Shown piece by piece: positions 24,001-27,000 of a stretch of 64,000 bases of DNA (positions are counted from its first letter, which is position 1; each line of letters begins with the position of its first letter). The stretch lies in assembly GCF_056712565.1 (NCBI RefSeq), contig NZ_CM160072.1. One strand, 5' to 3'. The position numbers were made by a program.

Positions 24001-27000
24001 TAACTGGAACTCTCTCGCCGCACTTACCGCAACGTTTTCTGCTGATCGATTTTATACGCCCGCGCACGCGTGCATCATCCTGGCGGATCAGTAACGCTAT
24101 ATACTCACCAAATTCGTAAGGCGCACGCCCGGGGCGACGCGTGGCACAGTTACGCTCCAGCATTTCAATTTCCTGAGCATCAAGCACAATCTCCAGTTTA
24201 CGCACACCAGATGCAGCTTGTCTGGCTCTCTGAGCGGCTTTGCGCTCTGCTGCTGATTTAGCCATCAATATTCACCTTTATCGCGAACACCTTTACCGGT
24301 TTATCTCCGAAGTGCGGATGTGTGATTGTCTTGATTTCATACCCTTCATACGGGACGTCTATTCTGCGACTGGAATCGTCACGCTTCGGATATCCCTTTG
24401 TGATAATCAGGCGGTCATACTCGCGGAACATAATTCGCTTATTCCAGTAGTCATTACACAGGCGATACTCTTCCGTTTTCTCTCCGCGAATCATGGCATC
24501 GAAGTATTCACCTTTAACGGCAAGTTGCAGGTTAGCCACGACCTTCCTCCTTTGGCTTGTGAATTTGTATCGTCATGCCGCTTTGAGTGGTGACTACAAC
24601 GACAGAACCAGGCTGAAGACTGTTAAGATTGAATGCTTCGTAAAACGAAGCCAAGGCCAGCGCTTTTTTATTCTTTCGGTTCCACCAACGCCATCCATTG
24701 CTACAGGCTACACTGACAATCCACTGTCCACTCCTGTAAGCCATATAAAACCAGATGAGCAAAACCTGAATGAATGCTATCCAGTCAATAATCGTATATT
24801 TCGCGAAGGAGACCATCAATTAACCTCCTGCGGCGGTTCCGGTAGAGGCATCCAGTACAAGGCGTTCCCTAACCACGATAAAGTGCCGTCGCTCAACTCC
24901 ACGTATTCCCCTTGTACCTGTCCTGCCATATACTCGCCGTGCTTTGAATAAATTAAAATCCAATCATCTTGAGCGGGCATTCGCTCACTACAGCTTATCC
25001 AACCATCCGGAGTTACCGGATAGTTGCCCGACAGCTCGTTCAACTTGTAAGTTTGGCTTACAGGTTCGGCTTCCAGTTCTGCAATGCGCTTCTCTGCAGC
25101 TTCCAGCTCAACGCGCAGCTTCCCTACCGTTAGCGCAATTTCCTCGTTCTCCTGGTCGCGGGATTTGATGTATTGCTGGTTCCTTTCCCGTTCATCCAGT
25201 AGTGCCAAAGCAATCTTTGGATTAAAGGCAGCAATAAATTCAGCGTTGTTTTTCAGAACGTGTTGCGCAATGGCCTGACTACTTAGTCGGACCTCATAAC
25301 CACGTGCGCCACGGTGTGGTTTATATGAGTCCCAGTCTCCCCACGTTGCTTTTTCTGCCTTAGCACGCAGTGCCTGATAATCAATCTTGCTCACTGGTTG
25401 CCTCCTTTGCTGGGCTTTCGAATGTATCAAGCTCAAACAACTTAACCACGTCATCAAACAGGACATAATCGCCATCAGAATCTTCAGTCATGTCAGCGCC
25501 ACAATCCTGACCGCACGAGTCACAACCATCCATATCAAGCTCGTATCGCTTCAGGTTTACGATATTTGATAAATTCAGCGCCAGTACAGCCAGGTCATAA
25601 ACCTCTTCGGCAGTGACATCGCTGTTCAGTCCCATTTCATGGCGATATATGATTTTTCCTACTCGTTGTTTTGTGATTGTCATTTTTGCTCACCTCCCTG
25701 TTCTTCCAGAAAAATACGCATAGCCTCAAGCATCTCTTCGGTGTCATACGGTGACAACTTGTCACGCAGGATGTGTTCAATGCTGTTAATGAACTTGCGG
25801 ATTGCTTTGCGTTCAATTTCAGCTAGGAAAGCATCGGTGGCTGGGGTGTCAACACGGATACTGTCGCGCAAGATGAAAAATGCATTGAGCATCCCAGTCT
25901 CCGGCACTTCATCCTGATACTTCTCATACGCATCAAGAGCCTTCATCATCTCAGGTCCGAATGGTTGAGGGTGCGCAGCCTTCAGCGCCGCATTCTCCGC
26001 TGCCAGCGCATTAGCACGCACCAGTTGCACTTCCAGTTGCGTTGCCAAACAGCGAACAAGCACGGATGGTGCGCCTGTCATGTCGTCAGCTAACGCATGC
26101 CCTGATGCCACTAAATCTTTGATCATACCTTCAGCCATACTTTCCATCTTTACCCTCGCTTATCCACATAACTTATTGATTACATTGATAACTAAAAAGA
26201 TCGTCGATTCAGAACTCTTCGATGTTCCAGCCGCAACCTGCTTTCTTTGGTTTAACCGTTACCCCGATGATTCGGAACGGATACTGATCTGCGGCGACTT
26301 TGGTTTTCACCCTGGCGTCGTCGGTCCAGAAACCTTTCACTTCGTGCAGTTCCATCTCTCCGGTGGCGAGCATCACAGCGAAATCTGGCGTATAGAACGT
26401 GTTGTCAGCTAACCGCAGCTTGATACCCTCGAATCGATACCAGGCGATTTCCCCTGCACGTTTACGCAGCTCAAGGTGCTGGCAATACGCAGATTCTGTT
26501 TTGTTCATCTGGCCTGTTTTGAGTCGACCAAGAGCCTGTATCTGTTTTCTCATGATTTACCTCTAAGGTAATTAAAAACCACATAAGACACGAAATCAAT
26601 AGATCTAAGAACATTTTGTTACCTATTGGGTAACTATTGAGGCGTAAAAAAATGCGCTATCGCGCTGGTATTACTTGATAAATCCTGCTGCCTTTCCTCG
26701 CCTGTATTCCTCCATCAGCCACTGCGCCGGTGTTATTCCCCCCAGGGTGGCGGCGTTAGGCATGCACCCGAAACTTCGCCCTGGTGGATGGTAAACGTCT
26801 CTCCCTGTGTCCGGAGGTGTACTCATGGGCTCTGGCTTTGCCTGTATGCTGATCACCGGATCGGGTATCTGCTGTCCGGAAGCCACCTTTTTCGCCCAAT
26901 CATCGAGCAACCTGCGCGCGTGTTTCTCAACCTCAATCTCGCTAAGCTGGCGCTGATACATTGCACGGCGGGTATCACATACGACCCAGTACATAACCGG

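What the first reader, a model, noticed from the sequence alone, without database searches (positions are those of the whole stretch)
24258..26553. Cluster of small accessory genes between replication and packaging modules
An ASCH-like protein, a single-pass membrane protein, a DUF551-type protein, a PD-(D/E)XK-like nuclease and three unknown ORFs are tightly coupled, several with strong AGGAGG SD sequences. Equivalent nin-like regions often hide anti-defence or host-takeover functions. I corrected several track starts, including a 95-nt spurious overlap at 25394-25475.
Basis: inference. Interest (0 to 1): 0.35.

Follow-up and report, generated by a model that had tools for sequence, protein, structure and literature searches.

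The report
Swappable accessory gene cassette in prophage
This is an ordinary, highly shuffled block of small early genes in an epsilon15/phiV10-type E. coli prophage: one conserved nuclease gene followed by five exchangeable genes of mostly unknown function. Phages of this group were already known to carry such a block.

Summary
The flagged stretch holds six, not seven, tightly coupled minus-strand genes. They sit in a Uetakevirus (epsilon15/phiV10-like) prophage inserted next to guaA.

- a DUF1064 PD-(D/E)XK nuclease with E20/D57/E71/K73 intact;
- an Eae-like mosaic protein;
- a 100-aa acidic protein (phrog_3126);
- a DUF4752 protein with a single transmembrane segment;
- an ASCH-fold protein carrying the GxKxxExR motif.

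In 58 related viral contigs anchored on a neighbouring gene, DUF1064 is backbone (57/58). The other five genes or their modules are exchangeable (5 to 53 of 58). Sixty-four cassettes hold 83 protein families in 59 arrangements.

The ASCH–DUF4752–Ea22 DNA is 95–99% identical to the 'ea' region of P22-like phages. The block is therefore nin-like by position but ea/exo-xis-like by content.

With two further genes, the block lies between terminator-like hairpins in the early rightward operon. I found no similarity to any described defence or anti-defence protein. Apart from the nuclease prediction and the published pro-lysogenic role of Ea22 relatives, function is untested.

This kind of region is already annotated in published phages. 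Interest is low.

The parts
26646..26665 (-). Weak terminator-like hairpin (GCGC-GAUA-GCGC, then A and U7), 6 nt after the stop codon of the lambda-P-like gene. It marks the upstream end of the transcription segment.
   Evidence: Folding gives -7.4 kcal/mol, z -1.9. The sequence is invariant in four related phages. The phiV10 record annotates it as a putative terminator.
26618..26634 (.). Palindrome GTTACC-N5-GGTAAC in the spacer between P and DUF1064. The arms are conserved and the centre varies. It could be a protein-binding site or a small hairpin; its role is unknown.
26209..26553 (-). DUF1064 PD-(D/E)XK nuclease, 114 aa. It is a backbone gene and a predicted structure-specific (junction-resolving) endonuclease.
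   Evidence: PF06356 at 31.0 bits (cut-off 24.7); phrog_190 'Holliday junction resolvase' at 1e-41. The YTPD57F...E71-V-K73 motif aligns with the active site of T7 endonuclease I. Present in 57 of 58 related contigs.
25680..26147 (-). orf155, an Eae-like mosaic protein, 155 aa, pI 4.7. It consists of an N-terminal module, the QLEVQLVRANALAAENA segment, a variable middle, the invariant PATDAFLAE joint and a variable C-terminal module.
   Evidence: phrog_492 and phrog_614, no Pfam family. Alignment A3 shows the module swaps. The middle module is 87% identical to that of EaE from the P22-like phage HF4s. Overall identity to the eae-like phiV10 p46 is 42%.
25381..25683 (-). orf100, a small acidic protein, 100 aa, pI 4.06, with 23 D/E against 8 K/R. 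It carries a conserved motif of about 45 aa, RYxLDMxGCDSxGQDCGADMxEDxDGxYV. It is rare in this phage group.
   Evidence: phrog_3126 at 5e-57. There are 241 clusters at 90% identity and 81 representatives at 50%. C54 and C61 are invariant. Present in 5 of 58 contigs. The AlphaFold2 model was unusable, pLDDT 52.7.
24816..25394 (-). Ead/Ea22-like protein with a DUF551 C-terminal domain, 192 aa, GTG start. This is the 'Ea22 V2' architecture.
   Evidence: PF13935 at 101 bits over residues 2-106; PF04448 at 43.7 bits over residues 131-189. The architecture is described for Stx phages in PMC10834534. AGGAGG lies 6 nt before the GTG.
24532..24816 (-). DUF4752 protein, 94 aa, with one N-terminal transmembrane segment (residues 8-26) and a basic region after it.
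   Evidence: PF15944 at 117 bits; phrog_667. Kyte-Doolittle 1.82. Present in 11 of 58 contigs. No paper in the library mentions the family.
24258..24539 (-). ASCH-fold protein, 93 aa, with G19-x-K21-x-x-E24-x-R26.
   Evidence: Pfam ASCH reaches only 14.3 bits, below the 21.2 cut-off. phrog_625 matches at 4e-51. The AlphaFold2 model has pLDDT 85. The top Foldseek PDB hits are all ASCH proteins, probability 0.87-0.99 and TM 0.49-0.61. The motif is defined in PMC6803910 and is invariant in the family alignment.
23927..24265 (-). reg113, 112 aa, a conserved basic protein with a Cys-rich C-terminus, in the position lambda Q would occupy.
   Evidence: phrog_536 'transcriptional regulator' at 8e-55. 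Identity is 97-100% in 80 viral contigs. Its start overlaps the ASCH stop by 8 nt.
23697..23909 (-). orf70, a small acidic protein (phrog_1541) and the last gene before the terminator. It is variable, present in 19 of 58 contigs.
23664..23691 (-). Strong intrinsic-terminator-like hairpin with a U-rich tail, between orf70 and the likely true start of the small terminase gene at 23622. It marks the downstream end of the segment.
   Evidence: -16.2 kcal/mol, z -4.1. Pfam Terminase_2 begins at residue 19 of the 198-aa form. TL-2011b annotates the short form.

Best explanation
The interval is the variable early-gene cassette of a Uetakevirus (epsilon15/phiV10-like) prophage inserted next to guaA.

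Expression. The cassette lies on the same strand as the cro-like, O-like and P-like genes and downstream of them. I found no convincing promoter of its own. It sits between a weak terminator-like hairpin after P and a strong one in front of the terminase genes. It is therefore most likely expressed in the lytic cycle, as a delayed-early segment, by transcription that reads through from the early rightward promoter. Translational coupling then passes ribosomes from gene to gene.

First gene. DUF1064 is a conserved PD-(D/E)XK nuclease with a complete active site. It most likely cuts branched replication or recombination intermediates before packaging, the job Rap or RusA does in the lambda nin region.

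Other five genes. The Eae-like orf155, the acidic orf100, Ea22+DUF551, the DUF4752 membrane protein and the ASCH protein are dispensable, exchangeable modules. They are shared with the ea/exo-xis regions of P22-like and lambdoid phages. They are shuffled by recombination at short conserved joints, both at gene boundaries (the linker AAGGAGGCAACCRGTG) and inside genes (the PATDAFLAE and coiled-coil segments).

Likely role. I think they most likely fine-tune the lysis-lysogeny decision and host physiology early in infection, as shown for Ea22 of lambda and Stx phages, rather than forming a dedicated anti-defence island.

What is shown and what is inferred. Shown: gene structure, family assignments, backbone versus variable status, mosaicism, and position between hairpins. 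Inferred: time of expression, nuclease substrate, and every statement about the function of the five variable genes.
For: Gene structure, SD sequences and overlaps.

Families.

Phage identity and synteny with PAS61, TL-2011b, phiV10 and a RefSeq E. coli prophage.

Integration next to guaA: and PMC9782041 for phage ZX5.

Backbone versus variable genes: in 58 contigs, DUF1064 57, ASCH 38, DUF551 47, Ead N-module 41, DUF4752 11, orf100 5, orf155 middle and C modules 6 and 5. 83 families and 59 architectures in 64 cassettes. Only 21 of 5426 E. coli genomes carry at least 80% of the 3.1-kb query (window 23600-26700, cluster plus flanks), while 3202 carry parts of it.

The same DNA occurs in the ea region of P22-like phages.

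Module swaps inside orf155.

Conserved linker with 30 different upstream contexts and several different downstream genes.

Active-site alignment of DUF1064 to T7 endonuclease I. Published PD-(D/E)XK prediction: PMC1189080.

Hairpins.

No promoter-like site on the minus strand inside the block.

Ea22 pro-lysogenic role and the Ead_Ea22+DUF551 variant: PMC7093339 and PMC10834534.
Against: There are no expression data. The hairpin after P is weak (4 bp) and could be irrelevant.

Only distant relatives of Ea22 were tested experimentally, and they sit in a different operon.

Nothing is known for DUF4752, orf100, the Eae-like protein or this ASCH subfamily, so 'development and host modulation' is an extrapolation from one gene.

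High turnover of genes at one locus is also the signature of counter-defence genes. Sibling cassettes carry HNH, a weak Mom-like hit and a methyltransferase-like ORF.

The contigs compared are close relatives and partly redundant, so the frequencies are rough.
Confidence: 0.65

Rival explanations
1. Anti-defence island. One or more of the five variable genes inhibits a host immune system. For example, the very acidic orf100 could act as a DNA mimic against restriction enzymes. The Ea22 and Eae scaffolds could present exchangeable C-terminal domains that each bind a different defence protein.
For: The gene content at a fixed locus is hypervariable. The genes lie in the lytic operon. orf100 has pI 4.06 and a net charge of about -15. 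Sibling cassettes carry HNH, a weak Mom-like hit and a methyltransferase-like ORF. The accessory-gene logic follows the preprint 10.1101/2023.04.06.535777.
Against: Pfam, PHROG and NCBIfam gave no match to any named anti-defence protein. The two anti-defence papers I checked do not mention these families. The Lar-like gene annotated nearby in one P22-like phage is a different gene. The orf100 model was too poor to test a DNA-mimic shape. The experimental data on relatives point to lysogeny control and host replication instead.
Confidence: 0.2
2. Lysogenic-conversion or superinfection-exclusion genes. The DUF4752 membrane protein, alone or with ASCH, is made from the prophage and blocks infection by other phages.
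For: DUF4752 has one transmembrane segment, like several exclusion proteins. It is translationally coupled to ASCH. The pair also occurs next to xis/int in P22-like phages.
Against: There is no promoter-like site and no flanking terminator of its own. It lies in the same strand and coupling chain as the lytic genes. There are no PADLOC matches. ASCH usually occurs without DUF4752, in 38 contigs against 11 of 58.
Confidence: 0.07
3. All six genes are core replication, recombination or packaging helpers of this phage type.
For: They lie between the replication and packaging genes. DUF1064 is conserved and is a predicted nuclease.
Against: The five other genes or their modules are missing from many close relatives that keep P, reg113 and the terminase genes at 97-100% identity. 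PAS61, TL-2011b and phiV10 carry different gene sets at this locus.
Confidence: 0.03

Closest known systems
The equivalent annotated region of Uetakeviruses: phiV10 p45-p55, and the same locus in PAS61 and TL-2011b
   Same: The backbone order is the same: O-like, P-like, terminator, DUF1064, variable small genes, ASCH (in phiV10), a conserved 112-aa regulator-like gene, then terminase. The flanks are 96-100% identical.
   Different: The genes between DUF1064 and the regulator-like gene differ. phiV10 has ten genes there, including a DUF550-type Ead protein. PAS61 has no orf100 homologue. TL-2011b has only a 54-aa hypothetical ORF in the DUF1064 position and carries a DUF2591 gene.
The 'ea' region of P22-like phages (Lederbergvirus): ST104 orf6-orf8, CUS-3, HF4s EaA/EaD/EaE
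   Same: The ASCH-DUF4752-Ead/Ea22 DNA is 95-99% identical. The middle module of orf155 is 87% identical to that of HF4s EaE.
   Different: In those phages the genes lie at the end of the leftward early operon, between the recombination/anti-RecBCD genes and xis/int. Here they follow the replication genes in the rightward operon.
The exo-xis region of lambda and Stx phages, with Ea22 (PMC7093339, PMC10834534)
   Same: The Ead_Ea22 N-terminal and coiled-coil region is followed by an exchangeable C-terminal domain. The DUF551-ended form is the published 'Ea22 V2' type. The genes are early and non-essential, and the region is mosaic.
   Different: The genome position and the companion genes are different. 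The lambda Ea22 C-terminal domain (PDB 8DSX) is unrelated to DUF551. A pro-lysogenic effect has not been tested for this protein.
The nin region of lambda and P22
   Same: The position is the same: after gene P, with terminators, ahead of the late regulator. Both include a structure-specific nuclease function (Rap or RusA in lambda, DUF1064 here). NinX occurs in sibling cassettes.
   Different: None of the six genes is homologous to a nin gene.
yfdQ-yfdR-yfdS-yfdT of the cryptic prophage CPS-53 (PMC4776307)
   Same: YfdS carries DUF551. Over-expression of that gene set inhibits host replication initiation, which shows that small prophage genes of this kind can target host DNA replication.
   Different: YfdR, the DnaA-binding partner, has no counterpart here. 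The contribution of YfdS is redundant with YfdT and its mechanism is undefined.

Membership tests
ASCH superfamily | Pfam PF04266 match at or above the gathering score | tested here: not met
   14.3 bits against a cut-off of 21.2; only residues 6-28 match. A profile of 21 family members found no ASCH chain in PDB sequences.
ASCH superfamily | PUA-like beta-barrel fold resembling solved ASCH domains | tested here: met
   The AlphaFold2 model has pLDDT 85.2. The best Foldseek PDB hits are ASCH proteins: 3iuw, 2z0t, 5gus, 1xne and YqfB 9kyh. Probability is 0.87-0.99 and TM 0.49-0.61, but E-values are only 0.02-0.1.
ASCH superfamily | GxKxxExR motif between helix 1 and strand 2 (PMC6803910) | tested here: met
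   G19-E-K21-T-E-E24-Y-R26 lies between model helix 10-17 and strand 23-27. G19, K21, E24 and R26 are invariant in 21 homologues.
ASCH superfamily | RNA or nucleotide binding, or hydrolase activity | not testable with these tools
   Needs biochemistry.
DUF1064 / PD-(D/E)XK nucleases | Pfam PF06356 match at or above the gathering score | tested here: met
   31.0 bits against 24.7. phrog_190 matches at 1e-41.
DUF1064 / PD-(D/E)XK nucleases | Catalytic E ... PD ... (D/E)xK residues | tested here: met
   E20, P56-D57 and E71-V72-K73 are present. PD and ExK align with the same motifs of T7 endonuclease I. The family was assigned to the superfamily in PMC1189080.
DUF1064 / PD-(D/E)XK nucleases | Nuclease activity on branched DNA | not testable with these tools
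   The 'Holliday junction resolvase' label in PHROGs is an annotation. I found no experiment on a DUF1064 protein.
Ead/Ea22 family, DUF551-ended (V2) type | Ead_Ea22 (PF13935) N-terminal and coiled-coil region plus a DUF551 (PF04448) C-terminal domain | tested here: met
   101.2 bits over residues 2-106, and 43.7 bits over residues 131-189. The architecture is described in PMC10834534.
Ead/Ea22 family, DUF551-ended (V2) type | Location in the exo-xis / ea region of the leftward early operon | tested here: not met
   Here the gene follows the replication genes in the rightward operon. The near-identical DNA in P22-like phages is in the ea region.
Ead/Ea22 family, DUF551-ended (V2) type | Tetrameric protein that favours lysogeny | not testable with these tools
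   Reported for lambda and Stx-phage Ea22. Untested here.
DUF4752 | Pfam PF15944 match at or above the gathering score | tested here: met
   117.3 bits against 27 over residues 9-92. One hydrophobic segment at residues 8-26.
Lambda/P22 nin region | Position between replication gene P and the late regulator or late genes, with terminators | tested here: met
Lambda/P22 nin region | Genes homologous to nin genes (NinB/Orf, NinG/Rap, RusA, NinX and others) | tested here: not met
   No such match for any of the six genes. NinX (PF10765) does occur in 13 sibling cassettes.
Described anti-defence proteins | Sequence similarity to a described anti-defence family | tested here: inconclusive
   No anti-defence profile library was available. 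Pfam, PHROG and NCBIfam names give none. The papers checked do not mention these families.
Known anti-phage defence systems | Match to a PADLOC model | tested here: not met
   No match for any of eight proteins.

The most novel reading that the evidence does not exclude
The Ea22-like, Eae-like and DUF551-ended proteins of this locus, together with the orf100 module, could form one modular 'scaffold plus exchangeable head' system. A conserved N-terminal or coiled-coil oligomerisation part would display swap-in C-terminal domains, each aimed at a different host target, including immune proteins. The acidic 45-aa Cys-containing motif of orf100 also occurs joined to Ead_Ea22, DUF551, a MazZ-like dATP/dGTP pyrophosphohydrolase and ASCH/DUF3850 domains elsewhere. 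It would be a shared interaction or mimicry module. The locus would then be a diversity-generating arsenal of host-targeting proteins rather than a random collection.
Probability: 0.1. Interest if true: 0.55.

Novelty: new member of a known kind. Interest (0 to 1): 0.15.

Why it matters
The practical value is limited. The region is one more permutation of a well-populated mosaic cassette whose gene families are already in Pfam and PHROGs and are annotated in published phage genomes.

Its use is as a clean, bounded test bed. A fixed frame (P, DUF1064 ... reg113, terminase) holds dozens of alternative small genes. That makes it convenient for screening what ea/exo-xis-type genes do. DUF1064 is a good candidate for a first biochemical characterisation of that nuclease family.

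The analysis also corrects three points of annotation:
- the GTG start of the Ea22-like gene;
- the shorter start of the small terminase gene;
- the count of six genes rather than seven.

Tried and rejected
1. A seventh gene. No further credible ORF exists in 24258-26553; all others are short and embedded out of frame.

2. An own promoter in the P-DUF1064 spacer. TTGATT-17-TTTAAT (26599-26571) is conserved. It lacks the A at position 2 of the -10 hexamer, and it ends only 17 nt before the ATG, so a transcript would start inside the SD sequence. The scan found no promoter-like site on the minus strand in the block. I treat it as unlikely.

3. Structure of orf100. The AlphaFold2 model has pLDDT 52.7, too poor for a fold search, so the DNA-mimic idea could not be tested.

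4. Sequence searches of PDB with five of the six proteins (DUF4752 was not queried) and with an ASCH-family profile. Nothing significant turned up except the marginal T7 endonuclease I alignment.

5. NCBIfam and PADLOC gave no matches.

6. Rfam and repeat searches found nothing inside the block.

7. Fusion proteins as evidence of functional linkage between orf100, Ead_Ea22, DUF551 and ASCH. I downgraded this. The joints coincide with the conserved SD/start linker, which translates as QRRQPVS, or with the PATDAFLAE joint. Many 'fusions' may therefore be recombination products or ORF-calling artefacts.

8. The 'Lar-like restriction alleviation' label under a hit in phage Salfasec13b belongs to a different gene, phrog_599.

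9. Literature. No paper mentions DUF4752. DUF1064 is covered only by bioinformatic predictions.

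Full report
**What is there**

The interval 24258-26553 contains six minus-strand genes, transcribed from high to low coordinates:

| Gene | Coordinates | Length |
|---|---|---|
| DUF1064 | 26209-26553 | 114 aa |
| orf155 | 25680-26147 | 155 aa |
| orf100 | 25381-25683 | 100 aa |
| Ead/Ea22+DUF551 | 24816-25394 | 192 aa, GTG start |
| DUF4752 | 24532-24816 | 94 aa |
| ASCH-like | 24258-24539 | 93 aa |

I find six, and two of them have no Pfam family. Every other ORF of at least 30 aa in the interval is short and embedded out of frame.

All six match PHROG families at E between 2e-28 and 5e-57. Public protein collections hold hundreds to thousands of homologue clusters for the three I searched. 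These are real genes, not chance ORFs.

Overlaps are 4, 14, 1, 8 and 8 nt, and the single gap of 61 nt follows DUF1064. An exact AGGAGG lies 6-7 nt before three starts, and GGGAGGTGA lies before a fourth.

**The start correction**

The longest ORF for the Ea22-like gene begins at the ATG at 25475 and would overlap orf100 by 95 nt. Three observations favour the GTG at 25394:
- AGGAGG lies 6 nt upstream.
- The Pfam Ead_Ea22 model and the PHROG models start at residue 1-2 of the GTG form.
- RefSeq annotates the same 14-nt overlap in strain TUM13773.

In 80 related contigs the linker AGGAGGCAACC(A/G)GTGA occurs 51 times. About half of the copies (the tabulated N-termini) are followed by VS(K/E)I(D/N)YQ..., and they are preceded by 30 different sequences.

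**Family assignments**

- *DUF1064.* PF06356 scores 31.0 bits against a cut-off of 24.7, and phrog_190 matches. The protein carries E20, P56-D57 and E71-x-K73. The PD and ExK motifs align with those of T7 endonuclease I. The family was assigned to the PD-(D/E)XK superfamily by Kosinski et al., PMC1189080.
- *Ea22-like protein.* Ead_Ea22 scores 101 bits and DUF551 scores 43.7 bits. This is the 'Ea22 V2' architecture described for Stx phages in PMC10834534.
- *DUF4752.* PF15944 scores 117 bits. There is one hydrophobic segment, Kyte-Doolittle 1.82 over residues 8-26.
- *ASCH.* The Pfam match is below threshold at 14.3 bits, and a family profile found no ASCH chain in PDB sequences. However, an AlphaFold2 model with pLDDT 85 has ASCH proteins as its best PDB matches, with probability 0.87-0.99 and TM about 0.5-0.6. 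The ASCH-specific GxKxxExR motif (PMC6803910) is present as G19/K21/E24/R26 and is invariant in the family. I accept 'ASCH-fold'.
- *orf155.* It has no Pfam family. It is an Eae-like mosaic, 42% identical to the eae-like phiV10 p46, and its middle module is 87% identical to that of EaE from the P22-like phage HF4s.
- *orf100.* It matches phrog_3126 and is very acidic, pI 4.06. It has a conserved motif of about 45 aa with two invariant cysteines. Its model was unusable, pLDDT 52.7.

**Context**

The window is E. coli chromosome carrying a Uetakevirus (epsilon15/phiV10-like) prophage.
- The integrase gene at 33453-34703 abuts guaA at 34896-36473. This is the attachment site reported for the related phage ZX5 (PMC9782041).
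- The best DNA matches are phages PAS61, HEMP4, TL-2011b and phiV10 and many E. coli prophages.
- The gene order matches the annotated records: repressor, cro-like gene, O-like gene (DnaT/HTH_36), lambda-P-like gene, DUF1064, variable genes, a conserved 112-aa regulator-like gene (reg113, phrog_536), small and large terminase.

**Backbone versus accessory**

I fetched 80 viral contigs anchored on reg113, so the sample is not selected for DUF1064. Of these, 58 have both P and reg113.

| Gene or module | Contigs of 58 |
|---|---|
| DUF1064 (median 97% identity) | 57 |
| Terminase small subunit | 57 |
| orf155 N-terminal module (about 50% identity) | 51 |
| DUF551 | 47 |
| Ead N-terminal module | 41 |
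| ASCH | 38 |
| DUF4752 | 11 |
| orf155 middle module | 6 |
| orf155 C-terminal module | 5 |
| orf100 | 5 |

The distance from P to reg113 ranges from 2072 to 5225 bp.

In a second set anchored on DUF1064, 64 cassettes (63 contigs plus the window) contain 83 protein families in 59 different arrangements. Other occupants include NinX, an HNH endonuclease, DUF7739, a weak Mom-like hit and a methyltransferase-like ORF.

In complete E. coli genomes, 3202 of 5426 carry parts of the 3.1-kb query (window 23600-26700, the cluster plus its flanks), but only 21 carry at least 80% of it in one place.

DUF1064 is therefore a backbone gene, and the other five are exchangeable.

**How the shuffling works**

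Recombination joints lie at gene boundaries. The conserved SD/start linker has many different partners on either side.

Joints also lie inside genes. In orf155 the N-terminal module, an optional 28-aa insert, the middle module and the C-terminal module recombine independently. They do so around the conserved segments ...QLVRANALAAENA... and the near-invariant PATDAFLAE motif (T, A, L and E invariant in 28 sequences).

The orf100 core motif is likewise found joined to Ead_Ea22, DUF551, a MazZ-like pyrophosphohydrolase, ASCH/DUF3850 and an Eae-type C-terminus. Because these joints coincide with the conserved linkers, I do not treat the fusions as strong evidence of functional coupling.

**Nin-like or ea-like**

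By position the block is nin-like. It follows P and lies between terminator-like hairpins:
- a weak one at 26646-26665, conserved in four phages and annotated in phiV10;
- a strong one at 23664-23691, -16.2 kcal/mol, z -4.1.

The block precedes a conserved regulator-like gene and the terminase.

By content it is ea/exo-xis-like. The ASCH-DUF4752-Ea22 DNA is 95-99% identical to the segment next to xis/int in the P22-like phages ST104, CUS-3 and HF4s. orf155 is an Eae relative. None of the six is a nin homologue.

**Likely function**

I found no promoter-like site on the minus strand inside the block. The conserved TTGATT-17-TTTAAT in the P-DUF1064 spacer is too close to the start codon and lacks the key -10 adenine. 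The block most likely depends on read-through from the early rightward promoter-like site at 28919-28891, across the hairpins at 28594-28613 and 26646-26665. It would then be made in the lytic cycle. This is an inference.

DUF1064 most likely cleaves branched DNA before packaging. This inference rests on an intact active site, the relationship to T7 endonuclease I, and backbone status next to the replication genes.

For the five variable genes, the only experimental anchors are relatives:
- Ea22 of lambda and Stx phages favours lysogeny (PMC7093339, PMC10834534).
- The DUF551 protein YfdS contributes to inhibition of host replication initiation when over-expressed with YfdQ and YfdR (PMC4776307).

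I therefore favour 'dispensable early modulators of the lysis-lysogeny decision and host physiology' at confidence 0.65. Hypervariability, lytic-operon position and the acidity of orf100 fit that idea. But no family match or literature supports it.

A prophage-expressed exclusion function for DUF4752 gets 0.07. The comparative data argue against an all-core reading, which gets 0.03.

**Verdict**

The region is accessory, except for DUF1064. It is nin-like only in position, and the anti-defence role is unsupported.

The region is another permutation of a known, already annotated mosaic cassette built from catalogued gene families. Novelty is 'new member of a known kind', and interest is low at 0.15.

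Noticed in passing
window 23622-23700: The longest ORF for the small terminase subunit starts at the TTG at 23700 and contains a strong terminator-like hairpin (23674-23691 plus a U-rich tail) in its first 26 codons. Pfam Terminase_2 begins at residue 19 of the form starting at the ATG at 23622, and TL-2011b annotates that shorter form. The true start is probably 23622. RefSeq and PAS61 annotate the long form.
   Followed up: partly
window 23927-24265: reg113 (112 aa, phrog_536 'transcriptional regulator') is basic, with a Cys-rich C-terminus (CGKCGERVPVNSCPC). It is 97-100% identical in 80 viral contigs. It sits where lambda Q would, directly before a strong hairpin and the terminase genes. 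It is a candidate late-gene regulator or antiterminator of this phage group.
   Followed up: partly
window 26618-26634: The palindrome GTTACC-N5-GGTAAC lies in the P-DUF1064 spacer. Its arms are conserved and its centre varies among four related phages. It could be a protein-binding site. Its role is unknown.
   Followed up: partly
L088-L167 (related viral contigs); window copy at 25391-25406: A conserved linker, ...CAGCTTCGCAAAGGAGGCAACC(A/G)GTGA, holds the end of one gene, the SD sequence and the GTG start of the next. It occurs 51 times in 45 of 80 contigs, with 30 different upstream contexts and several unrelated downstream genes. It looks like a recombination joint for module exchange. 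When read through, it translates as QRRQPVS, which appears in database 'fusion' proteins.
   Followed up: partly
window 27832-27971: Three adjacent tandem-repeat arrays (periods 12, 24 and 18 nt; the 24-nt unit ATCCCGTTTTTGGGATCATTCAAC occurs 2.6 times at 100% identity) lie inside the O-like replication initiator gene. This is the arrangement expected for an iteron-type origin, as in lambda ori within gene O.
   Followed up: partly
window 2097-2278 and 2174-3019: Rfam isrK (2097-2173) and C4 antisense RNA (2192-2278) lie at the start of a BRO-N-domain ORF. This suggests an RNA-controlled antirepressor module of the P1/P7 type near the far end of the prophage.
   Followed up: no
window 20817-20893: A tRNA-Arg (anticodon TCT) gene lies inside the prophage, near the large terminase gene. 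The same gene is annotated in the related prophage of strain TUM13773.
   Followed up: no
window 30209-33258: The leftward operon carries a PDDEXK exonuclease (DUF3799, RecE-like), RecT and an MT-A70 family methyltransferase next to the integrase gene. The methyltransferase is the most obvious candidate in this prophage for protection against restriction.
   Followed up: no
proteins P0380, P0389, P0434, P0045 (relatives of orf100): The motif of about 45 aa, R(Y/F)xLDMxxCDSxGQDCGA(D/E)MxEDxDG(D/E)Y, occurs at the N- or C-terminus of otherwise unrelated prophage proteins. Examples are one with a MazZ-like dATP/dGTP pyrophosphohydrolase domain and one with DUF3850/ASCH. No Pfam family matched orf100 itself, and several proteins carrying the motif had no Pfam hit at all.
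   Followed up: partly
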